From: a virus
UHGV virus genome: UHGV-0090252
Direction: 5' to 3' (one strand)
Length of the DNA: 64,000 nt
Of this stretch, positions 27,689 to 61,573 are shown one piece after another (positions within the stretch are counted from its first letter, which is position 1; each line of letters begins with the position of its first letter). The notes beneath the pieces were generated by a model that was not told the DNA's origin, ran no database searches, and saw only the letters and a program-made list of their open reading frames with translations. A program made the position numbers and the translations under genes.

Positions 27689-27764
27689 TGGAGAATCCGA
27701 AGGGACTCGAACCCTTATAAACCTGTTTTGCAGACAGGCGCATATCCATTTCTGTCACGGATTC
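27689..27764 (-). tRNA. tRNA-Cys (anticodon GCA)
   Basis: Hand-folded cloverleaf; 7-bp acceptor, T-loop TTCGAGT, encoded CCA. Confidence 0.8.
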
Positions 27765-27768
27765 AAAT

Positions 27769-27861
27769 TGGAGGAAGATACCAGACTTGAACTGGTACAC
27801 CGATTTCTCAGCTACTGGCAGTTTAGCAAACTGCTCCCTTACCTTTTAGGGTTAATCTTCC
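27769..27861 (-). tRNA. tRNA-Ser (anticodon GCT), long variable arm
   Basis: 93 nt, type II structure, encoded CCA. Confidence 0.75.
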
Positions 27862-27862
27862 G

Positions 27863-44366: not shown

Positions 44367-44615
44367 TTAGTTAGTGCCTTCTTTGTCGTAGTACAGGGAG
44401 ACAATTTTTTCACCCCAATAGTGAAAAGAATAACCCTCTTTAAGAACTTCCTGTTTTGTTTCCTCCCAGAACTCATTAGAAGGATTATAGTCGCTGATGG
44501 TCTGACTGATAAGACCTTTCACCATTTCAAAGGCGTTATCAGTGCCTGCAATGTCAAATTTAACATCCAGAGAGTAAAAACCAAATTCGTTAACAGTAGC
44601 GCGGATAGTTGCCAT
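44367..44615 (-). CDS. small protein, array gene A
   Basis: 82 aa; ATG immediately follows conserved leader ...AGGAGATTCAAAAATG. Confidence 0.55.
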   Translation of the reverse strand: MATIRATVNEFGFYSLDVKFDIAGTDNAFEMVKGLISQTISDYNPSNEFWEETKQEVLKEGYSFHYWGEKIVSLYYDKEGTN

Positions 44616-44683
44616 TTTTGAATCTCCTAGTTTAAGGGTTTTATTTAGTGGGGAAGGTCATTCCCTCTCCGTTGATTGACAAT
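44616..44683 (-). promoter_or_regulatory. conserved leader type 1 (GC hairpin GGGAAGG/CCTTCCC-like plus SD)
   Basis: Fills the whole intergenic gap; near-identical copies before 6 other genes of the array. Confidence 0.55.
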
Positions 44684-45214
44684 TTACAGATTTTTGATTG
44701 TCTCATCAATATCTTTTTCAATATCTCTCAAAGTTTTTTCTAAGTTCTTGATATTGAAAGATAAGCCTTCTCCCAGTGTCTTAGCGTAACCATTGGGGCG
44801 CAAGTCATGCAGTTCGATTCCTTCCACTTCGAAGAGACTAACCAGCTCACCGCTTACAGTGTAAGCCATTGAAACAGTATTTACAGGGGCTTTATAGAAC
44901 TTGTTTAAGAACTTGATTGAACGCTCATAAGCCATTTTATAGCTATTTAAAAGGTTTTTAACTTGGCTATGAACGTTTTTGCACTCATCCAAGTAAATCC
45001 CTAAGAATAGCGGTAATAATTCTGCTACAGCTTGCATAAAGTGAGAGACTACAACGGTTGCAGCATTACGACGATGAACGTAATAAGCCCCGTTTTCTGA
45101 TTTGGTGATGGTTGCAAAGTGTACCCCATTGCAGCGAAATTCGTAGGTATCTTTGACAGGCTTTGACATTACAGCATTTGAACGAATATAGTTGATGGCT
45201 TTGAACTTGTTCAT
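44684..45214 (-). CDS. hypothetical protein, array gene B
   Basis: 176 aa; conserved leader upstream. Confidence 0.55.
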   Translation of the reverse strand: MNKFKAINYIRSNAVMSKPVKDTYEFRCNGVHFATITKSENGAYYVHRRNAATVVVSHFMQAVAELLPLFLGIYLDECKNVHSQVKNLLNSYKMAYERSIKFLNKFYKAPVNTVSMAYTVSGELVSLFEVEGIELHDLRPNGYAKTLGEGLSFNIKNLEKTLRDIEKDIDETIKNL

Positions 45215-45300
45215 TTTTGAATCTCCTAGTTTAAGGATTTTATTTAGTGGGGGAGGTCATTCCCTCCCGTTGATTAGTAATTTACTTGTTTTGATAGCTG
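45215..45300 (-). promoter_or_regulatory. conserved leader type 1 (hairpin GGGGAGG-6 nt-CCTCCCC plus SD)
   Basis: Perfect 7-bp GC stem about 45 nt before the ATG; followed by a further 140 nt non-coding gap. Confidence 0.55.
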
Positions 45301-45437
45301 ATTGCAAGCAATTTTTTAAGCTTATCTATAAAGAACCTTTTAAGTGAATCCCTTTTAGATAAACCCCCCTCGAACAACATTACCAATGTCAAGGGGTATT
45401 GTCAACACTTTTTTGAAAGTTTTTTGTAAGTTGTTGA

Positions 45438-45779
45438 TTAACTGATGAATATTTTTTCAGGTTTTACATAGCTGATACGTTGGATTTTTAGCAGGTCATC
45501 CCAGATTAGTGCGGCAATATGAGCATAACCGGATTCACGTAGAAGCTTCATTGCTTTACTTCTCGTTTCAAATCGGTTTGCATAGTACTCGCTGCTCAGG
45601 GTTGTTTTCTTCCCTTCATTGTCTACATGAATAATCTGCATTACTTGGAAGGGGCTTACATCCTCGCCTTTATTCCATTGCTCAAAGTATTTTAGGCACT
45701 GCATAGGTGTCATCTTATCACTTACTTGGGTTGACCAAGATGAATCCGGTTTATTGGTGATTACAGTTACATAAGCCAT
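45438..45779 (-). CDS. hypothetical protein, array gene C
   Basis: 113 aa. Confidence 0.55.
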   Translation of the reverse strand: MAYVTVITNKPDSSWSTQVSDKMTPMQCLKYFEQWNKGEDVSPFQVMQIIHVDNEGKKTTLSSEYYANRFETRSKAMKLLRESGYAHIAALIWDDLLKIQRISYVKPEKIFIS

Positions 45780-45870
45780 TTTTGAATCTCCTAGTTTAAG
45801 GATTTTATTTAGTGGGGGAGGTCATTCCCTCCCCGTTGATTGACAATTTACAGACTTTTATCAGGCTTGT
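45780..45870 (-). promoter_or_regulatory. conserved leader type 1
   Basis: Same sequence family as 44616-44683. Confidence 0.55.
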
Positions 45871-46104
45871 CTAGTCTTTTTCAATGATAATTTCATATTG
45901 ACCATCAACACTATCAAAATAAATGCCGTCGTCGTCTTCTGTCTTAAAGTAGCATTGAATATCATCACTTGCGGGGTAGTCTTGCCTTGCTATCTGGCAA
46001 ACTTGAATAGCATTTTCTTTACTTCCTGTAAACTCCTCAAGCCCTTTAAAATCGCATGAATGACCATTACAGATGGAAAGGATGAGATAAATGGTTGTAA
46101 GCAT
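45871..46104 (-). CDS. small Cys-containing protein, array gene D
   Basis: 77 aa. Confidence 0.5.
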   Translation of the reverse strand: MLTTIYLILSICNGHSCDFKGLEEFTGSKENAIQVCQIARQDYPASDDIQCYFKTEDDDGIYFDSVDGQYEIIIEKD

Positions 46105-46111
46105 GATTTAA

Positions 46112-46138
46112 GCCCTCTAAAAGCCCCTACAAGGGGCT
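46112..46138 (-). terminator. hairpin plus U-run (terminator or attenuator inside the array)
   Basis: Minus-strand AGCCCCT-TGT-AGGGGCT followed by TTTTAG; replaces the conserved leader before gene D. Confidence 0.45.
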
Positions 46139-46169
46139 AATTAGTGTTTATAAGGTGATTATATAGATT

Positions 46170-46712
46170 TTAGAAAAAGCTCTTTAAATCTTTCTCTGTG
46201 ATGTTTCCTGTCAGTGTGTCCATGATGTCACAAAAAACCTGAATACTGTCCGACTGTTGAACGCTTTTAGCAAGAAGTTCCAGAGACTCATCAAGATAGT
46301 TTAAATTTGGGTTATCCAGTGAAGGAAGACAAAAAGGCGAAAACATCGCATTAAACTCGGTTACGTAAACCTTTTTAATCCAACTTGCATCAAAGTACTC
46401 TGTAAAACTTGCCACGCCAGACATATTATCACAAGAATAATCATCATTCAGCTCATCCTCTGGAATATCAAGTTCCAAGATAACAATATTTTGAGTTTTC
46501 ATCTGGAAAGCGGCTGTAATAGTGGCATTACCTAATGCTTGCTGAATGCCTTCGGCTGTCATCTCTTCTTCATCGTCGCCATAGATTTTATTTTCTGGAT
46601 ACACGTAAAAATTACCGTCCATGTCCGAACAATTCCATGCGCCTGATGGTTTATCGCCGTTATTAATCAGGTTGAGGAAGTTTTCTTGAGTAGTACCGTG
46701 AAAGCATTTCAT
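46170..46712 (-). CDS. hypothetical acidic protein, array gene E
   Basis: 180 aa. Confidence 0.55.
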   Translation of the reverse strand: MKCFHGTTQENFLNLINNGDKPSGAWNCSDMDGNFYVYPENKIYGDDEEEMTAEGIQQALGNATITAAFQMKTQNIVILELDIPEDELNDDYSCDNMSGVASFTEYFDASWIKKVYVTEFNAMFSPFCLPSLDNPNLNYLDESLELLAKSVQQSDSIQVFCDIMDTLTGNITEKDLKSFF

Positions 46713-46797
46713 TTTTGAATCTCCAGTCTAGGATTTAGTGGTAAAGCTCTTTATCTGGAGCTTAAGATATCAACTTTTAAGCCCCCTGTAAAGTACT
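46713..46797 (-). promoter_or_regulatory. conserved leader type 2 (hairpin GGGGCTTAA-loop-TTAAGCCCC plus SD)
   Basis: Near-identical copies before array genes G, J, K (and hybrid before L). Confidence 0.55.
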
Positions 46798-47001
46798 TTA
46801 TCGGTTATTTTTGACAACTTTTAAAACAGCACGGTAACCTAAGCAATAGGAATCACCGAAGAGCGACCGACCCATGAAGGAGTCCTCTGTAATATCTTTC
46901 GCCGTGACGGTTTTTTCTACGCCGTGAAAAAGAACTACATCCCCGGCTTTAATGTCTTTGATGTGTGTGGTTTCAATGGTTAAGCCGTTAATAATAGCCA
47001 T
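46798..47001 (-). CDS. small protein, array gene F
   Basis: 67 aa. Confidence 0.5.
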   Translation of the reverse strand: MAIINGLTIETTHIKDIKAGDVVLFHGVEKTVTAKDITEDSFMGRSLFGDSYCLGYRAVLKVVKNNR

Positions 47002-47111
47002 TTTAGAATCTCCTAGTTTAAGGGCTTTATGTAGTGGGGGGGATGGTCATTCCCTCCCCGTTGATGTGTAATTTAATATATATATATAAAAACCAGTGTC
47101 AACAAAAATTT
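47002..47111 (-). promoter_or_regulatory. conserved leader type 1 plus (TA)5 tract
   Basis: Type 1 hairpin and SD; atatatatata at about 47078-47089. Confidence 0.5.
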
Positions 47112-47516
47112 TTAAAGTTCTGCATAAATTGCATCACAGATATTACGGAAGTCGTGATTTGACAAATTACGCTGCAACCAAGTGGCGAAAAAGTCAGCGA
47201 TTGCATAATTAGCATCATACTCGACGGATAGCCATACTTTTACGGCGAATCTGAACATTTTTAAATCAAGCTCTTTATTCATTACCTTAGATTTGCCCAA
47301 CATGTCAGCCATTTCATATTGCGCACCGTCTAGCGTGATACCTGCTGCAACGTCAGTTAATGAGTTTTTCACGTTTTCAACGTCTAAGATAACACTTTGA
47401 ATCTTCCCAATAATGTTGTGCAATGTTTCATCAGGTGCTGATGATGTCAGAACATTAATCCGGTTAACTGTCAAACGTGCTTTTAAGATTGATAACTCAC
47501 GGTTATTAATAGCCAT
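47112..47516 (-). CDS. hypothetical protein, array gene G
   Basis: 134 aa. Confidence 0.55.
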   Translation of the reverse strand: MAINNRELSILKARLTVNRINVLTSSAPDETLHNIIGKIQSVILDVENVKNSLTDVAAGITLDGAQYEMADMLGKSKVMNKELDLKMFRFAVKVWLSVEYDANYAIADFFATWLQRNLSNHDFRNICDAIYAEL

Positions 47517-47603
47517 TTTTGAATCTCCAATTTAGGATTTAGTGGTAAAGCTCTTTATCTGGGGCTTACTTTATCGAACTATAAGCCCCCTGTAAAGTAC
47601 TTT
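47517..47603 (-). promoter_or_regulatory. conserved leader type 2
   Basis: Hairpin GGGGCTTA-13 nt-TAAGCCCC. Confidence 0.55.
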
Positions 47604-47876
47604 TTATACTAAATGCAGTTTTTTACCTTTTACTATGATGTAACTTGATGCGCTATTACTTTGCACATCTTGATAAATTCTACGCAAACGGCCTTCGTAG
47701 TATACTTTCCAACTGGTTGGAATCTTTTTCCCGTATCCTGTAGCAGTTTTTTGCAGTCCTGCAAGTTGCCAATCAAGAATATGTTGTTCAGCTTGTAAAT
47801 CCTCGAAGTGCATTACGCCGTTCACATAGTGGCGCAGGGTTACGTTTAAGGTGCGACCGTTGTTAGTAGTATACAT
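47604..47876 (-). CDS. hypothetical protein, array gene H
   Basis: 90 aa. Confidence 0.5.
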   Translation of the reverse strand: MYTTNNGRTLNVTLRHYVNGVMHFEDLQAEQHILDWQLAGLQKTATGYGKKIPTSWKVYYEGRLRRIYQDVQSNSASSYIIVKGKKLHLV

Positions 47877-47966
47877 TTTAGAATCTCCTAGTTTAAGGGC
47901 TTTATGTAGTGGGGAAGGTCATTCCCTCCCCGTTGATTAGTAATTTACTTGTTTTTAAAATCAAAA
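47877..47966 (-). promoter_or_regulatory. conserved leader type 1
   Basis: Type 1 hairpin and SD. Confidence 0.55.
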
Positions 47967-48299
47967 TCAAGATAAATTTTTTCGTTTGCTCAGTTCTTGA
48001 ACAATTACAGCGTAGTAGTCTTTTAAGTCACTGATATTTAAAGCATTTATCAGAGAGTTATAATCATCGACTAACTGAAAATCATCTTTAAAGATGTCGC
48101 TGATTTGATAAGTTCTCGATTGAAATCTGAAACTCATTTCTAACCGTTTTATTTGTTCATCACTTAAACGCTCCAGAAAGCTCATTACAAGGCTATTATT
48201 GACCTGTTGCGTGATTGCCTTACTTGCCAGAGTATAGGCGCTGTACGCCTTATATAGCGCCATAATAGCAATGATTGCAGTGATGCCAGTCATTAGCAT
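47967..48299 (-). CDS. membrane-associated protein, array gene I (translationally coupled to J)
   Basis: 110 aa; N-terminal hydrophobic helix; 7-nt overlap with upstream gene, no leader of its own. Confidence 0.5.
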   Translation of the reverse strand: MLMTGITAIIAIMALYKAYSAYTLASKAITQQVNNSLVMSFLERLSDEQIKRLEMSFRFQSRTYQISDIFKDDFQLVDDYNSLINALNISDLKDYYAVIVQELSKRKNLS

Positions 48300-48589
48300 G
48301 GTGATTCCTCTTTACGTGATACTTTGCCGCTTACAGTTATCTCATAAGATTCTAATAAATCACTTTTAGACTTTACAGGGCTTTTAAAAGTATTATCGTA
48401 AATATTGACTTGCAATACAGGGTTTTTATACTCCCTGCAACTATTCCATAAGCAAATCACTACACGACGGCCTTTAATTTTGCCGTGTAACCATTCCATA
48501 ACATCATGATTATTTCTTGATGTTTCAATGAAATCAATTTTATTAAGTAACTTGCTCAGATTTTCACGAACTTTATTTGATAATTTCAT
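48293..48589 (-). CDS. hypothetical protein, array gene J
   Basis: 98 aa. Confidence 0.5.
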   Translation of the reverse strand: MKLSNKVRENLSKLLNKIDFIETSRNNHDVMEWLHGKIKGRRVVICLWNSCREYKNPVLQVNIYDNTFKSPVKSKSDLLESYEITVSGKVSRKEESPC

Positions 48590-48677
48590 TTTAGAATCTC
48601 CAATTTAGGATTTAGTGGTAAAGCTCTTTATCTGGGGCTTACTTTATCGAACTATAAGCCCCCTGTAAAGTACTTTA
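48590..48677 (-). promoter_or_regulatory. conserved leader type 2
   Basis: Identical over about 80 nt to 47517-47603. Confidence 0.55.
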
Positions 48678-48968
48678 TTAGTTAATTTTCAGCTTTGCAT
48701 GACCTCTCATTGTACGAATGGGGGAGGTTAAGGCTACGCGTCTAATATATGCCTTTTTCGTGTATATATTTGTCTTCCCGATAGTGTTTACACATGTAAA
48801 AAGGTTTATTGGTGAATTTTTTAACTTCAACTGTTTATCAACCTTCACGCCCCACCTTACAGCAGACTGTTTTCCGTTGTCAACAACTTTACCGCATAAC
48901 TTTTTAGCCATAATGCGAGCATCATCACGAGTTTTTGCAGTAATTACAACGTTTTTGATAATAGCCAT
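48678..48968 (-). CDS. small basic protein, array gene K
   Basis: Start set to the leader-aligned ATG at 48968 (ORF track extends to 48983 into the leader). Confidence 0.5.
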   Translation of the reverse strand: MAIIKNVVITAKTRDDARIMAKKLCGKVVDNGKQSAVRWGVKVDKQLKLKNSPINLFTCVNTIGKTNIYTKKAYIRRVALTSPIRTMRGHAKLKIN

Positions 48969-49054
48969 TTTTAAGTTCTCCAATTTAGGATTTAGTGGTA
49001 AAGCTCTTTATCTGGGGCTTAAGATATCAACTTTTAAGCCCCCTGTAAAGTACT
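48969..49054 (-). promoter_or_regulatory. conserved leader type 2
   Basis: Hairpin GGGGCTTAA-11 nt-TTAAGCCCC. Confidence 0.55.
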
Positions 49055-49438
49055 TTATTTGTTAATTTTGAAGATAGTTACATAACCATCGCTACCAATG
49101 ATTTGCGGCACTCCAACTTTTTCTACTGAATAGCCCATATTTTCAAGATGATAAATGGCATCATCATAACCATATGCGCCACCCTGATAACGTCTCTTAT
49201 TGCATTTTATCAGGTTTTTTCCACGTCCTGCAAGTGCATTCAGTATGGTTTTTTCGCTTGAGAGTGTACCATCTATCATGGTTGCCGTGTAATGGTTGAT
49301 TTTATTCCCGTTGATGTCATATTTAAAATTAAATGAGTGAACAACAATTTTATTGCCTTTGAAATTCTCATCAAGTGACTTCTCCAGTACGTTGCGAAAG
49401 TTGTCTTTGTTGATGAATTTCGGTGCACGATAAGCCAT
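49055..49438 (-). CDS. hypothetical protein, array gene L
   Basis: 127 aa. Confidence 0.55.
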   Translation of the reverse strand: MAYRAPKFINKDNFRNVLEKSLDENFKGNKIVVHSFNFKYDINGNKINHYTATMIDGTLSSEKTILNALAGRGKNLIKCNKRRYQGGAYGYDDAIYHLENMGYSVEKVGVPQIIGSDGYVTIFKINK

Positions 49439-49529
49439 TTCTGAATCTCCTAGTTTAAGGGTTAATGTGGTAAAGCTCTTTATCTGGGGCTTAAGATATC
49501 AACTTTTAAGCCCCCTGTAAAGTACTTTA
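49439..49529 (-). promoter_or_regulatory. conserved leader, type 1/type 2 hybrid
   Basis: Type 1 SD-proximal part joined to type 2 hairpin. Confidence 0.5.
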
Positions 49530-49736
49530 TTAGATATCGTAGTAATAAACTGCTGTCTGTCTTATGTGCTTTCTTGTATTTCTTGTAAGGTAGCAATCAG
49601 AGTTGATTGCTGTTTCTACATAGTTGCAATAGTCAGCTTCTGATATTCTAGACCATACGCCACAGATTTGCATGTAAAAACGTTTTACCTTTGTGTTAAC
49701 GTTAGTTGTAACCATCAATTCACGACCGTATAGCAT
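49530..49736 (-). CDS. small protein, array gene M (first gene of array)
   Basis: 68 aa. Confidence 0.5.
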   Translation of the reverse strand: MLYGRELMVTTNVNTKVKRFYMQICGVWSRISEADYCNYVETAINSDCYLTRNTRKHIRQTAVYYYDI

Positions 49737-49790
49737 TTTTAAGTTCTCCTAGTTTAAGGCTGTCGGGCTTGTCGCCCCGTCTGATGCAAA

Positions 49791-49979: not shown

Positions 49980-50200
49980 CCCACCTACACCCACCTACCT
50001 GCACAATTCTCAAATGATTTTTCTTGCCCGACCTGATTTTTCTCTGCACGTTTTGAAAATGAAAAAGCTCTTTGGAGATTACCTGCACAGTTTGAAAATG
50101 AATTTTCTCTTTGGAGTTCAAAATTCTCTCTACAGATTTCTCTATAGAAATATACCTGCACAATTCTGAAATGAAAAAGCCCTCCTTACCTGAAAAATTT
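49980..50200. repeat. four imperfect direct repeats of CCTGCACARTT..AAATGA(AAAAGC) in a non-coding region
   Basis: Direct reading; only short overlapping ORFs on both strands. Confidence 0.5.
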
Positions 50201-50247
50201 ACCAGATAAGAAAGGCTTAGTCTATTGTGAATATCCTACGAAGTTTC

Positions 50248-51033
50248 TTAGTTCTTTGCGTCTAAGAAGGTAACTTCTGGCGAAGAGAAAACTGTCTCGA
50301 TATCCTCATCAGTTCTTGCATAGATGTAGGTGTCTGCATCGCTACCAAATGTCACGGCAATTCTATGATTGCTCTTCGACAGGTGGGTAACTAGAGCGTT
50401 ACTTAGAGACATCTTTTCAACCGGAGGGTTACTTTGATGTATCTTACCTTTTCTTCGTCTGAAGAGGGTAACTGCATTATCCGTGAACACAACTACACCT
50501 GCAAAGTATTCTGGTTCACAGTAGTTCTTCCAACCTGAGCGTAACTTGTGGTACATCTCTCCTTCATAGACATACAGATAAACATCCACACTCTTCATCA
50601 CCTGATTGATGATAACTGTGACAGCTTGAGGGTCAAGTCCACCAATACCTGCACCAATCATAGGTAAACCAACTTTCTTCAACTGATTGACTTCACAGTA
50701 TCTGTTAAGCTGTTTCAAAGATGACTCTAAAGCACTGTATCGTGCATCTTTACCAGTATGAAGTTGGGTGTAAAGGTTAGCTATACGACCTTGTTTTAAA
50801 CGTGCTACAGATAAATTACCTAGTAAATTTTCACAGGGTTTGTGACGAATGCCACCTGCAAACAGGTAAACTTCTGTGTCAGTATCATACACTTTTGGAT
50901 AACGCTTAGAAATAGTTGCTGCAATACCTGCACCCATGAAATTCATACAGTTGCAACCATGACCAATGATATCAAATTTACCTTTATCAAATGCTTCAAA
51001 GATATCACCTTTGATGATTTTTACAATACCCAT
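50248..51033 (-). CDS. macro-domain protein (ADP-ribose binding/processing) with C-terminal extension
   Basis: 261 aa; macro-domain-like motifs GDI..DIIGHGCNCMNFMGAGIAATI and VGLPMIGAGIGGLDP. Confidence 0.65.
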   Translation of the reverse strand: MGIVKIIKGDIFEAFDKGKFDIIGHGCNCMNFMGAGIAATISKRYPKVYDTDTEVYLFAGGIRHKPCENLLGNLSVARLKQGRIANLYTQLHTGKDARYSALESSLKQLNRYCEVNQLKKVGLPMIGAGIGGLDPQAVTVIINQVMKSVDVYLYVYEGEMYHKLRSGWKNYCEPEYFAGVVVFTDNAVTLFRRRKGKIHQSNPPVEKMSLSNALVTHLSKSNHRIAVTFGSDADTYIYARTDEDIETVFSSPEVTFLDAKN

Positions 51034-51234
51034 TTAACATCTCTCCCAAGATTCTTTATCTTCTGAAGGTTTTACACGCTGTCCTTCGTGGTCTACCCAG
51101 ATGCACCCACAACCTTCACAGATTACTGGCATTGCATAGCCAGCCTTAAAGTCATCTTCAGTGATGAGACCTTTTAAGTCACCTGTATCACGTCCGAACA
51201 TTTCGATAGAACAATCTTTGCAGAAGTCAGCCAT
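51034..51234 (-). CDS. small zinc-ribbon protein
   Basis: Start placed at ATG 51234 (MADFCKDC...; ORF track extends to 51312); CKDC and CEGCGC cysteine pairs. Confidence 0.4.
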   Translation of the reverse strand: MADFCKDCSIEMFGRDTGDLKGLITEDDFKAGYAMPVICEGCGCIWVDHEGQRVKPSEDKESWERC

Positions 51235-53061: not shown

Positions 53062-53757
53062 TCAATGTTTTACTAACATAGTTTTAATGTGTGGAAGGAT
53101 TCTGTTCACCTTCTGCACATTCTTCTCTGTATCTTCTATAAAACATACTATATCAAAGTAAGGCAGAATGCAAGACTGAATCATCCTCACTTTCAAACTT
53201 TCTGCACTTATAGAGTTAGTCCCAAAACCACGCATAAAAAGCATGTAATCATGCTCTATGTAATGCCTTAAAAACATCTCAGTAGGTATTCTCTGAGATT
53301 CACCTCTCGCTGTCAAGAGTCCAATGGCGGCATGATTAGCAATTGCGTCAATGATGTTGAAAACATACGTTGGTTTTGCTCTTACAGAGTCAAGCAAATT
53401 AGTGTACTGTGAAAATGACCCATCAATCAATTCCATTGAGCAATCTTCGTGATTAAAATTTGTAAGAACACCATCAATGTCTGCTAAGATAAGGTTACCT
53501 TTTTCTACAAGGTCTTTATTGACTATGACTAAGCTATCACGACTTACACCTATAGTTTGTCCAGTCTCTTTATCTACAACATTCACAATTGGCTCTGATG
53601 TGTGGAACTCTTCGAGTGAACATACGACTTCTCTTGCGGTGTCTTCAAAATCCCTACACTGTTCTGGAGTACATACACAGGAATCAAGACCTAACTCATG
53701 AGGATGTAAGTCGTAAGCATGACACAGTACTTCATCAGACTTTTTTAATTTTTTCAT
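53062..53757 (-). CDS. HAD-superfamily hydrolase-like protein (putative nucleotidase) with Cys-rich N-terminus
   Basis: 231 aa; LILADIDGVLT resembles HAD motif I (DxDG). Confidence 0.45.
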   Translation of the reverse strand: MKKLKKSDEVLCHAYDLHPHELGLDSCVCTPEQCRDFEDTAREVVCSLEEFHTSEPIVNVVDKETGQTIGVSRDSLVIVNKDLVEKGNLILADIDGVLTNFNHEDCSMELIDGSFSQYTNLLDSVRAKPTYVFNIIDAIANHAAIGLLTARGESQRIPTEMFLRHYIEHDYMLFMRGFGTNSISAESLKVRMIQSCILPYFDIVCFIEDTEKNVQKVNRILPHIKTMLVKH

Positions 53758-58864: not shown

Positions 58865-60646
58865 TTAAAGCTGCTTGTCAATATTGTTTCGAATATCACC
58901 AAGAGTTGTGTAACCGAACTGCTCAGAGTCACTAAAGACTAAACGTAAAGCACAAGCTGGATGTTCAAGTGCATCTGCAAAGCTCTGGAATCCATAGCCA
59001 TCTACAGCTTTCAACTTATCACCATCCCACATAGGTGCTACACCACCAAAAGCAGACTTCTTAACACCACTATCTGTTTTAGGGTCTTTTGCAAGCATAA
59101 TCTCTTTACCACCAATGCTTGCAAGAGTTGCTTTAACAGCAAATGCAAAGGTGTCACGAGTCATGTACTGGTAAGTGTAAGAGCCTACGCCAAACACTAC
59201 GTTAGAGCTTGCAAAACCCATTTCATACAGACGCTTCAGTATTTCGTTTGCACGTTCCAGCGTGATAGAGTCGCCATAGATAAGACCGATATGCTCATCC
59301 AGTACCTTAAACCCTTTAGAGTTGATAGTCCCACCAAAGATGTTGTACAGTGTCTTAATAGCTCCATCAATTTCAGCTACAGGACGTGTTACAACGTTTG
59401 CAGAGCCGTTGATGTAAGCATCTTTCAGCAACACTGTATCGGCTACTTCAAAGTCTTCTCTGTCAACCACCATTTCATAGCCTTCTGCACGTAACCACCC
59501 AGCCATAACATAGTTAATATCTTCAAGCTTCATGTTCAGGACGGTGCTCAACATTGTGTCACTGGCATTCTGCTTGATAAGGTGCTCGTAATAAGCCTTC
59601 TTAGCACACTCTAAGTGGATTGCTTTATAACCTGTGACAATATGTACAGGGTCTCCAGAGTCAGGGCGAATTACCAGCTTACCATCACGTTCCATAATTT
59701 CTTTACGAAGTGCTGGTAAGATTTCTGACACAGTTCTCCAGAAGTTATAAGTATCTGAAACAATACTTGCAATACCAGTTGGGTAAGTTTCTGTTAAGAA
59801 ACGACGGAAGGTTTGTAACTCACCGTTAAAGCGTCTTTCCTCTTCAATCAATTCATTACCACCTTCCCAAGCGATGTTTGCACACATCACAGAGTGTTCA
59901 GTAGCTGGTACAGAACTACCAATGTCAGAGATTGGGTAAGACTGTCCATAGATACGTTTAGCTGTGTATACAGCAGGGAAGCTATCAGTCCCTTTAAAGC
60001 TGGTTAAGTGACCTACAGCGTTAAATGCGTCATCAGTAAAGCCGGACATACCACGCATAGCAAAGTCATGGCACTGATAAGGTAAATGTAAGTCATTGTC
60101 GCAAGTAAGGTCAGCCAACTTCTTACAGATGCGTTTGTAATGTAATGCAATAGTTGCAATGGTGCAAGCCTTCCAAATCTCAGCAGAGAAAGCATCTTCC
60201 AGATACCCTGCTACCCAATGGAAACCTGAAACAGTGTTCTGGAAGACAATCATTGGGACACGCATAGGAACAACTGTACCTTCTTCTACAGCGTATACTT
60301 CAACTGGTAGATAGCCTAAGTCGTGAAGTGCTTCCCAATGCTCTCGACCGATAGCATCTTTACCCAGAACACCATTCATGACTTCTAAGATTTCATCAAT
60401 TGCTTCTTTCTTATCACGTTCAAAGAAAGTGGCGTTCCAGTGGTCTATCAAGTAATCTTTAACAAAACGTTGAATACCAAAAGCCACTACACCGTCAATT
60501 GCTAAAGGACTGTTAAACCATTTATCACTACGTGGTGTCAGGTTGAACATCAAGTATTCTGTTGCACTAGGGTACTGGTAAACATGACCAGATTTGTAAG
60601 CATCTGCGTTTAAACCTGCTGGTACTGCATAAAGTGATTTAGTCAT
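58865..60646 (-). CDS. nicotinamide phosphoribosyltransferase-family enzyme (NAMPT/NadV-like; candidate NARP1 Namat)
   Basis: 593 aa; NAMPT-like motifs DAYKSGH, CHDFAMRGMSG, SFKGTDS, VPATEHS, VSDTYN, IRPDSGDP; longer than canonical NAMPT. Confidence 0.8.
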   Translation of the reverse strand: MTKSLYAVPAGLNADAYKSGHVYQYPSATEYLMFNLTPRSDKWFNSPLAIDGVVAFGIQRFVKDYLIDHWNATFFERDKKEAIDEILEVMNGVLGKDAIGREHWEALHDLGYLPVEVYAVEEGTVVPMRVPMIVFQNTVSGFHWVAGYLEDAFSAEIWKACTIATIALHYKRICKKLADLTCDNDLHLPYQCHDFAMRGMSGFTDDAFNAVGHLTSFKGTDSFPAVYTAKRIYGQSYPISDIGSSVPATEHSVMCANIAWEGGNELIEEERRFNGELQTFRRFLTETYPTGIASIVSDTYNFWRTVSEILPALRKEIMERDGKLVIRPDSGDPVHIVTGYKAIHLECAKKAYYEHLIKQNASDTMLSTVLNMKLEDINYVMAGWLRAEGYEMVVDREDFEVADTVLLKDAYINGSANVVTRPVAEIDGAIKTLYNIFGGTINSKGFKVLDEHIGLIYGDSITLERANEILKRLYEMGFASSNVVFGVGSYTYQYMTRDTFAFAVKATLASIGGKEIMLAKDPKTDSGVKKSAFGGVAPMWDGDKLKAVDGYGFQSFADALEHPACALRLVFSDSEQFGYTTLGDIRNNIDKQL

Positions 60647-60691: not shown

Positions 60692-61573
60692 TCAATCAAT
60701 GGTTGCTACAGTAACTTGGGCGTAATGTGTTAAGCCACGGTCTTTAGCTTCACCTAAAGTGTTTGTAGTGTAGATATGGTCAATACCATTGTCAAGTAAG
60801 TTTTCAACACCTTTAGAGAAAATACCATGAGTTACATAGAGTTCCACACGTTTTGCACCTGCTTCACGTAGGTGTTTAGCTGCCTCTACGAAGGTTCGAC
60901 CACCATCACAGATATCATCAAGAATCATGACAGTTTTATCGGTCAAATCAACATCGTCAAGGATTCGCATACCAGTGATTTCTCCAGTCTTAAGATTGCG
61001 CACCTTAGACATTGTGATATACGGTTTATCCACCTCTTTAGCGGTATCTTCAGTCTTCTTAGCTGCACCTGCATCTGGGGCTACCAAGAAATCAATGCGT
61101 GGGTCACTTGCAAAGTGTACTGCCACATCTTTTTGCTTCATGCTCTGAAAGCACTTAAATAAGTTTTCTGCAACATTACTGTGAGGGTCAAGAGCACATA
61201 CTGCATCAAAGCCCATTGCATTAACTAGGTTGGCAAAGACTTTCAGTGCTGCTGCATCACCTTTGAACATGTGGCGGTCATATCGAGCATTTGGTAAGAA
61301 CCCGAAAACAACGGTTTTCATCGCTGATTTCTGGGGAACAAGACTGTCAACGGCATCCTTAGCCAAAGCTAATGCAAACAGTGTATCCTTGTCATATCCC
61401 TGTACAGTAATTATAACATTATCAATCTTACCAGCATTACGCTCAGTAAACTTAACAAAATCTTCAGAGAAGTTTCCACCAATTTCTCCAGATGGGAATT
61501 GAATGATATTAAATTTTTCTGTGTGGAAGAATTTCTCTTGTGCGGTGACGACGGCTTCAATAACAGTTTTCAT
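60692..61573 (-). CDS. ribose-phosphate pyrophosphokinase-family enzyme (PRPP synthetase-like; candidate NARP1 Adps)
   Basis: 293 aa; PRPP-binding loop VMILDDICDGGRT and Prs-like N-terminal domain; adjacent to the NAMPT-family gene. Confidence 0.8.
   Translation of the reverse strand: MKTVIEAVVTAQEKFFHTEKFNIIQFPSGEIGGNFSEDFVKFTERNAGKIDNVIITVQGYDKDTLFALALAKDAVDSLVPQKSAMKTVVFGFLPNARYDRHMFKGDAAALKVFANLVNAMGFDAVCALDPHSNVAENLFKCFQSMKQKDVAVHFASDPRIDFLVAPDAGAAKKTEDTAKEVDKPYITMSKVRNLKTGEITGMRILDDVDLTDKTVMILDDICDGGRTFVEAAKHLREAGAKRVELYVTHGIFSKGVENLLDNGIDHIYTTNTLGEAKDRGLTHYAQVTVATID

What the first reader, a model, noticed from the sequence alone, without database searches (positions are those of the whole stretch)
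50248..51033. Macro-domain protein with a C-terminal extension
The N-terminal ~185 aa match macro-domain motifs for ADP-ribose binding or hydrolysis, followed by a 75-aa tail of unknown function. Macro domains can reverse ADP-ribosylation or process ADP-ribose derivatives, which is relevant to ADP-ribosylating toxins and NADase-based defences.
Basis: partly seen in the sequence, partly recalled or inferred. Interest (0 to 1): 0.5.

Follow-up and report, generated by a model that had tools for sequence, protein, structure and literature searches.

The report
Phage macrodomain enzyme with orphan tail domain
This FelixO1-like phage gene encodes an ADP-ribose-removing macrodomain, related to the T4 protein that defeats the bacterial DarTG2 DNA-tagging defence, fused to a fast-evolving extra domain of unknown role; it is a recognisable member of a widespread phage family rather than something new in kind.

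The parts
50248..51033 (-). Complete CDS, 261 aa plus stop; annotated 'putative phosphatase' (TRIB_124) in phage Tribble and 'O-acetyl-ADP-ribose deacetylase' in SLAM_phiST56
   Evidence: ORF list; 99.8% DNA identity to OX016465; annotations; PHROG 335 at 385.6 bits over the full length
50563..51033 (-). Macrodomain, aa 1-157 (ALC1/TARG1-like class, Gln-type clade shared with T4 Tk.4)
50251..50562 (-). C-terminal domain, aa 158-261: linker helix, six beta strands and a short helix; an orphan domain
50764..50766 (-). Codon CAA for Gln90 in the invariant NLYTQ motif; occupies the position of the catalytic Lys of TARG1 (K84), DarG (K80) and PhiKZ AdfM (K78), and of Gln85 in SCO6735
   Evidence: Invariant in A1 and visible in all 169 collected sequences; HMM alignments to TARG1; 4-way alignment; hhalign to SCO6735/BT1257 aligns ANLYTQ with ANMIGQ; SCO6735 numbering verified
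50950..50952 (-). Codon for Asn28 in the invariant HGCNC motif; equivalent to DarG N22 and SCO6735 N27
   Evidence: Invariant column; hhalign HGCNC to HVCND; the N22A effect in DarG is reported in PMC5179494
50920..50937 (-). MGAGIA loop (aa 33-38), the first glycine-rich ADP-ribose-binding loop
   Evidence: M33, G36 and A38 invariant, G34 and I37 nearly invariant; identical MGAGIA in TARG1
50638..50655 (-). GAGIGG loop (aa 127-132) after P124, the second (diphosphate-binding) loop; Gly131 sits where TARG1 has Asp125
   Evidence: P124, G127 and G129 invariant; alignment to TARG1 PRIGCGLDRL; DarG G119/G121 loop described in PMC5179494
51041..51047 (-). Shine-Dalgarno-like GGGAGAG, 7 nt before the ATG
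   Evidence: Sequence read
50177..50218 (-). Intrinsic terminator-like hairpin (17-pair stem, T-run) about 30 nt after the stop codon; ends the transcription unit
   Evidence: Scan; annotated as a terminator in phage Tribble
51034..51234 (-). Upstream 66-aa Cys-rich gene (CxxC...CxxC) whose TAA abuts the macro ATG; context only, function unknown
   Evidence: ORF and sequence; PHROG 2210 of unknown function, 140 bits; no Pfam hit

Best explanation
The gene encodes a two-domain counter-defence enzyme of a FelixO1-like phage. The N-terminal macrodomain (aa 1-157) binds the ADP-ribose moiety through its two glycine-rich loops. It hydrolyses the ribose-base bond of ADP-ribosylated thymidine that a host DarT2 toxin places on single-stranded phage DNA, which restores replication. 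It is therefore the counterpart of T4 Tk.4 (AdfM). Catalysis does not use the Lys nucleophile of TARG1/DarG. An invariant Gln (Q90) positions the substrate, as in SCO6735, where a water-mediated mechanism was proposed. The C-terminal domain (aa 158-261) is an accessory module specific to Ounavirinae-like phages. It is probably a protein-protein interaction or targeting domain, because it is near neutral in charge, evolves faster, and T4 manages without it. Shown here: the ORF, the fold, the motifs, homology to Tk.4 and SCO6735, and selection on both domains. Inferred: the hydrolase activity, DNA-thymidine as substrate, the anti-DarTG2 role, and any role of the C-terminal domain.
Against: No biochemical or genetic test exists for this protein or for any Felixounavirus. 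Identity to Tk.4 is only 35%, and macrodomain substrate specificity cannot be read reliably from sequence (PMC9503650). The mechanism for Tk.4 itself is inferred in a preprint, not shown biochemically. The SCO6735 residues K34 and K89, which were mutagenised there, are Ala35 and Gly94 here, and SCO6735's 5-residue 'mobile loop' insertion is absent. The N-terminal motif also resembles Poa1p, an Appr-1''-p phosphatase. Bacterial members of the clade are orphan genes with no DarT or other conserved neighbour, so the clade's ancestral role may be more general. The role of the C-terminal domain is entirely unsupported by homology.
Confidence: 0.6

Rival explanations
1. The macrodomain processes soluble ADP-ribose derivatives rather than DNA adducts. 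Candidates are ADP-ribose-1''-phosphate (the 'phosphatase' annotation), O-acetyl-ADP-ribose, and ADPr-derived immune signals or toxic metabolites made by TIR, Sir2 or RES-type defences. It may act together with the phage's own NAD+ salvage genes.
Against: The only genetic phenotype for a clade member (T4 Tk.4) is DarTG2-specific. In HMMER alignments Poa1p matches only the N-terminal half and the distal loop, not the NLYTQ segment. The 'phosphatase' labels are propagated annotations, not tests. The macro gene is not adjacent to, or in one operon with, the NAD salvage genes; rIIA and rIIB lie between them.
Confidence: 0.15
2. It reverses ADP-ribosylation of another macromolecule: mRNA/RNA adducts made by defence ARTs such as CmdT, or Glu/Asp-linked protein ADP-ribosylation by host toxins. 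DarT2-modified DNA would be at most a side substrate.
For: SCO6735 and TARG1, in the same class, also hydrolyse Glu/Asp-ADP-ribosylated proteins (PMC9411070). RNA ADP-ribosylation defences and reversing macrodomains are described in the literature (titles). The added C-terminal domain, absent from T4 Tk.4, could redirect substrate choice.
Against: SCO6735 strongly prefers DNA over protein substrate. No ART gene is annotated in the relatives' regions examined. There is no specific evidence for an RNA or protein target in this clade.
Confidence: 0.15
3. It is a catalytically inactive ADP-ribose reader or sponge, because it lacks both the catalytic Lys and the Asp of TARG1. It would act by binding ADP-ribosylated targets or signals, perhaps bringing the C-terminal domain to them.
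For: Q90 replaces TARG1 K84 / DarG K80 and G131 replaces TARG1 D125. DarG K80A is inactive (PMC5179494).
Against: SCO6735 has the same Gln and no Asp, yet it is the most active of the three enzymes tested, and the Gln is essential for activity. The Gln is essentially invariant across more than 150 clade representatives, which suggests a functional active site.
Confidence: 0.05

Closest known systems
T4 Tk.4 = AdfM (anti-DarT factor Macrodomain; HIDEN-SEQ preprint 10.1101/2025.11.20.689424)
   Same: Same PHROG 335. 35% identity, E 2e-23, over the whole macrodomain. Same HGCNC / NLYTQ / P.IG.GIG motifs. A phage accessory gene.
   Different: Tk.4 is a 155-aa stand-alone macrodomain, whereas the window protein carries an extra ~104-aa C-terminal domain. 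T4's downstream tk.3 is unrelated to that domain. The anti-DarTG2 phenotype is shown for T4 only.
SCO6735 (Streptomyces coelicolor, PDB 5E3B) and BT1257 (PDB 2AFC/2FG1): Gln-type ALC1-like macrodomains
   Different: Only ~24% identity. The 5-residue 'mobile loop' insertion after the Gln is absent here. SCO6735 K34 and K89 correspond to Ala35 and Gly94. They are bacterial single-domain proteins.
DarG2 antitoxin of DarTG2 (T. aquaticus 5M31/5M3E, M. tuberculosis 5M3I)
   Different: Catalytic Lys80 is replaced by Gln. Scores 54.9 bits against a cutoff of 250, and only positions 2-153 of the 338-position model are matched. The C-terminal domain has no detectable similarity to DarG. No adjacent darT.
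Chimallivirus AdfM (PhiKZ gp104; Cell Rep 2026, PMC13309987)
   Same: A phage-encoded stand-alone macrodomain shown to remove DarT2 ADP-ribose from DNA and to protect against DarTG2. Same proposed biological role.
   Different: It is a different macrodomain lineage: 23% identity, E 2e-5. It is Lys-type (MFPTK, K78) and aligns with Q90. It is imported into the phage nucleus and has no C-terminal domain. Two unrelated lineages now share the name AdfM.
Human TARG1/OARD1 (PDB 4J5R, 2LGR)
   Same: Best sequence-profile hit among solved structures (E 5e-18). Identical MGAGIA loop. The same spacing from the catalytic position to the following conserved Tyr.
   Different: The TARG1 catalytic dyad K84/D125 corresponds to Q90/G131 here.
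Yeast Poa1p ADP-ribose-1''-phosphate phosphatase (PDB 6LFQ/6LFU)
   Different: HMMER aligns only the N-terminal ~55-80 residues and the distal loop; the NLYTQ segment is not matched. It acts on a small metabolite.

Membership tests
Macro domain superfamily (Pfam PF01661) | Sequence scores above Pfam's gathering threshold | tested here: met
   30.1 bits against a cutoff of 22, aa 25-141 covering model positions 2-117 of 118
Macro domain superfamily (Pfam PF01661) | Three-layer alpha/beta/alpha macro fold | tested here: met
Macro domain superfamily (Pfam PF01661) | Binds ADP-ribose | not testable with these tools
   Only the two glycine-rich loops (MGAGIA, GAGIGG) are seen conserved
ALC1/TARG1-like macrodomain class | Closest solved relatives are TARG1, DarG, SCO6735/BT1257, Poa1p and ALC1 | tested here: met
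TARG1 / DarG Lys-type hydrolases | Catalytic Lys (TARG1 K84, DarG K80) | tested here: not met
   Invariant Gln90 at that column
TARG1 / DarG Lys-type hydrolases | TARG1 Asp125, the partner of the Lys | tested here: not met
   Gly131 aligns with D125
SCO6735/BT1257 subclass | Gln at the catalytic-Lys position (Gln85) | tested here: met
   hhalign probability 98.4% aligns ANLYTQ with ANMIGQ; Q85 numbering verified
SCO6735/BT1257 subclass | Third ('mobile') loop five residues longer than in TARG1/DarG | tested here: not met
   hhalign places a 5-residue gap in the phage clade after Q-H; the spacing from Q/K to the conserved Tyr is 9 here and in TARG1 but 15 in BT1257
DarG2 antitoxin (NCBIfam NF048014) | Full-length match above the curated cutoff, including the C-terminal DarT-binding domain | tested here: not met
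   54.9 bits against a cutoff of 250; only model positions 2-153 of 338 are matched; the C-terminal domain alone gives no NCBIfam or PADLOC hit
DarG2 antitoxin (NCBIfam NF048014) | Encoded next to a darT toxin gene | tested here: not met
   Neighbours are small phage genes, spanins and rIIA/B; there is no conserved neighbour in 71 bacterial loci either
AdfM, T4 Tk.4 type | Homology to Tk.4 over the whole macrodomain, with shared signature motifs | tested here: met
   35% identity, E 2e-23; 36%, E 2e-25 to ime09 Tk.4; both in PHROG 335
AdfM, T4 Tk.4 type | Protects the phage from DarTG2 / removes DarT2 ADP-ribose from DNA | not testable with these tools
   Shown genetically for T4 only; no data exist for Felixounavirus
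AdfM, T4 Tk.4 type | Single-domain architecture of about 155 aa | tested here: not met
   261 aa with an extra folded domain; only 258 of 2997 phage records with a homologue cover 80% or more of the query
AdfM, PhiKZ gp104 type | DarG-like macrodomain with N23 and K78 | tested here: not met
   23% identity, E 2e-5; K78 aligns with Q90
Poa1p-like Appr-1''-p phosphatase | Phosphatase activity on ADP-ribose-1''-phosphate | not testable with these tools

The most novel reading that the evidence does not exclude
The fast-evolving orphan C-terminal domain is a second, independent counter-defence module. One possibility is a convergent analogue of DarG's C-terminal domain that binds and blocks DarT2 toxins directly; another is an inhibitor of a different host system. 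The protein would then be bifunctional, both erasing the modification and neutralising the enzyme that writes it, with the C-terminal domain tracking host toxin variants.
Probability: 0.15. Interest if true: 0.6.

Novelty: new variant of a known kind. Interest (0 to 1): 0.33.

Why it matters
If the prediction holds, FelixO1-like phages, which are widely used in Salmonella and E. coli typing and therapy cocktails, carry a built-in anti-DarTG2 enzyme. That bears on host-range prediction. The analysis also shows that T4's newly named AdfM belongs to a very large Gln-type macrodomain clade: about 6% of sequenced phage genomes, more than 1,100 clusters at E<=1e-30, plus orphan copies in hundreds of bacterial species. 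This clade is mechanistically closer to SCO6735 than to DarG and is distinct from the PhiKZ 'AdfM'. The only unexplained element is the ~100-aa orphan domain fused to it in Ounavirinae-like phages. It is selected but evolves quickly, which makes it a candidate for a host-interaction module.

Tried and rejected
1. The C-terminal domain as a DarG-like DarT-binding domain: no NCBIfam, PADLOC or Pfam hit, and the DarG models stop at residue ~160. Rejected at the level of detectable homology.
3. The C-terminal domain as a fused copy of the gene downstream of T4 tk.4 (tk.3): hhalign probability 0.2%. The PMBT37 protein has a C-terminal extension of similar length that the profile does not recognise.
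4. A word-indexed homologue search with the C-terminal domain alone returned nothing. The local HMM found it only in close relatives plus P0026 and P0027.
5. Guilt by association in bacteria: 71 loci were analysed and the best neighbour cluster occurs in only 6, which reflects taxon synteny. No ART or DarT partner was found.
6. A link to the phage NAD+ reconstitution pathway NARP3: that paper does not mention macrodomains.
7. 'Inactive because it lacks the catalytic Lys': rejected on the SCO6735 precedent.
8. MAFFT misplaces BT1257's longer loop. This was resolved with hhalign.
9. Literature searches found no study of a Felixounavirus macrodomain or of Felixounavirus against DarTG.

Full report
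OBSERVATION. The window is a FelixO1-like myovirus. A 2.6-kb stretch around the finding is 99.8% identical to Escherichia phage vB_Eco_Tribble (Ounavirinae, Felixounavirus) and 92-95% identical to about 200 other Escherichia, Salmonella and Shigella phages. An ATG-to-stop ORF of 261 aa lies exactly at 50248-51033 on the minus strand. It has a GGGAGAG Shine-Dalgarno-like sequence 7 nt upstream. The TAA of the preceding 66-aa gene abuts its ATG, and a 17-pair hairpin with a T-run lies ~30 nt after its stop codon. That hairpin is annotated as a terminator in Tribble. The gene is the last in a run of small minus-strand genes downstream of rIIA/rIIB. Public records call it 'putative phosphatase', 'phosphatase' or 'O-acetyl-ADP-ribose deacetylase'.

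ACTIVE SITE: A GLN-TYPE CLADE. Across the family the motifs HGCNC, NLYTQ and P.IG.GI.GG are invariant or nearly so. HMM alignments place Q90 on TARG1 K84 and G131 on TARG1 D125. K84 is equivalent to DarG K80, and K80A inactivates DarG (PMC5179494). This is not a dead enzyme signature. S. coelicolor SCO6735 has Gln85 at that position. It removes ADP-ribose from DarT-modified thymidine faster than DarG or TARG1, rescues DarT toxicity, and is inactivated by Q85A/E (PMC9411070). I recovered the SCO6735 and BT1257 sequences from PDB alignments and verified the numbering: Q85 lies in ANMIGQHG. A profile-profile alignment (hhalign, probability 98.4%) aligns ANLYTQ with ANMIGQ. It also shows that SCO6735's 5-residue 'mobile loop' insertion is absent from the phage clade. 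So the protein shares the Gln signature but is not a member of the SCO6735 subclass in the strict sense.

SIZE AND SPREAD OF THE CLADE. An exhaustive profile search found 18,421 cluster representatives at E<=1e-3 and 1,183 at E<=1e-30. The best 150 are mostly 150-160-aa stand-alone proteins. All 169 sequences collected show the [YF][TS]Q motif on inspection. tblastn finds a homologue in 2,997 of 50,697 phage records, mostly large myoviruses of enterobacteria, Pseudomonas, Vibrio and Acinetobacter. In one-genome-per-species bacterial data, 485 loci encode relatives at 31-39% identity. In the 71 loci analysed no neighbour is conserved (the best cluster is shared by 6 loci), so these copies are orphans rather than toxin-antitoxin partners.

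THE LINK TO A TESTED PROTEIN. Among the phage hits is gene tk.4 of T4-like phages. T4 Tk.4 (155 aa) is 35% identical to aa 3-157 of the window protein (E 2e-23) and has the same HGCNC and NLYTQ motifs. The ime09 copy gives 36% identity, E 2e-25. Both proteins fall in PHROG 335. Tk.4 covers profile positions 55-205 and the window protein covers 53-312. A 2025 preprint (HIDEN-SEQ, 10.1101/2025.11.20.689424) reports that tk.4 was the single significant conditionally essential gene of T4 on a DarTG2-expressing host, and that a clean knockout sensitises T4. The authors named it AdfM. Independently, a Cell Reports 2026 paper gave the same name to PhiKZ gp104 and showed that it removes DarT2 ADP-ribose from DNA (PMC13309987). 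I fetched gp104. It is only 23% identical (E 2e-5) and is Lys-type (MFPTK), with K78 in the same column as Q90. The window protein therefore belongs with the T4 lineage and not the PhiKZ lineage.

MECHANISM PROPOSED. The macrodomain binds the ADP-ribose moiety in the cleft formed by MGAGIA (aa 33-38) and GAGIGG (aa 127-132). N28 and Q90 position the distal ribose and the modified base. The ribose-thymine bond made by DarT2 on single-stranded phage DNA is hydrolysed, releasing ADP-ribose and restoring the template. The fold, motifs and homology are shown here. The activity, the substrate and the biological role are inferred from T4 Tk.4 and SCO6735. I put this at 0.6. The rivals are soluble ADPr-derivative processing (0.15), another macromolecular substrate (0.15) and a non-catalytic reader (0.05).

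VERDICT. The protein is an additional, two-domain variant of a known and very common phage macrodomain family whose T4 member was recently tied to DarTG2. Interest is modest. The only unexplained part is the orphan C-terminal domain.

Noticed in passing
window 27689-32580 (minus strand): A cluster of 25 tRNA genes covering most amino acids (two tRNA-Met, two Gln, two Lys, two Ser, three Leu), as is typical of FelixO1-like phages.
   Followed up: no
window 58865-60646 and 60692-61573 (minus strand): A nicotinamide phosphoribosyltransferase-like gene (Pfam NAPRTase plus NAMPT_N) and a PRPP-synthetase-like gene sit just upstream of rIIA, about 8 kb from the macro gene. This is a phage NAD+ salvage module in the same early/accessory region. 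No NMNAT partner was looked for.
   Followed up: partly
window 44608-49759: A repeated intergenic cassette of 85-107 nt (5-8 copies, 61-95% identical) precedes each small minus-strand gene downstream of the macro gene. On the coding strand it reads as a GC-rich hairpin (GGGGAGGGAATGACCTTCCCC), a promoter-like stretch, and then CCTTAAACTAGGAGATTCAAAAATG, which is an RBS plus start codon. These look like modular terminator-promoter-RBS units.
   Followed up: partly
window 49996-50189: Three copies of a ~30-nt repeat (TACCTGCACA.TT...AAATGA...) spaced 73-84 nt apart fill the otherwise ORF-poor 500 bp right after the macro gene. The last copy overlaps the terminator hairpin. Function unknown.
   Followed up: no
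window 51034-51234 (minus strand): A 66-aa Cys-rich protein (CKDC...CEGCGC, zinc-ribbon-like) belongs to PHROG 2210, of unknown function. Its stop codon abuts the macro gene's ATG, which suggests translational coupling.
   Followed up: partly
window 53062-53757 (minus strand): A 231-aa ORF is annotated 'putative polynucleotide kinase' in phage Tribble but has no Pfam match at E<=0.01, so the annotation looks unsupported.
   Followed up: partly
L086:4923-5390 (T4 tk.4) and L087:19518-20006 (PhiKZ gp104): Name collision in the literature. Two macrodomain lineages, Gln-type T4 Tk.4 and Lys-type PhiKZ gp104, are only distantly related to each other. This is inferred from each one's comparison with the window protein and from the 4-way alignment A4; they were not compared pairwise. 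Both were independently named AdfM in 2025-2026.
   Followed up: yes
L003-L082 (bacterial genome loci): Orphan ~151-aa members of the same Gln-type macrodomain clade occur in 485 loci of diverse bacteria (Lysobacter, Ruegeria, Planctomycetota, Verrucomicrobiota, Bacteroidota and others) with no conserved gene neighbour. They may protect against foreign DarT-like toxins, as was proposed for SCO6735.
   Followed up: partly
L085:2498-3280 (Salmonella phage PMBT37): A 260-aa relative has a 45%-identical macrodomain, QGCNC instead of HGCNC, and a C-terminal extension of similar length that the C-terminal-domain profile does not recognise. This could be domain replacement or extreme divergence.
   Followed up: partly
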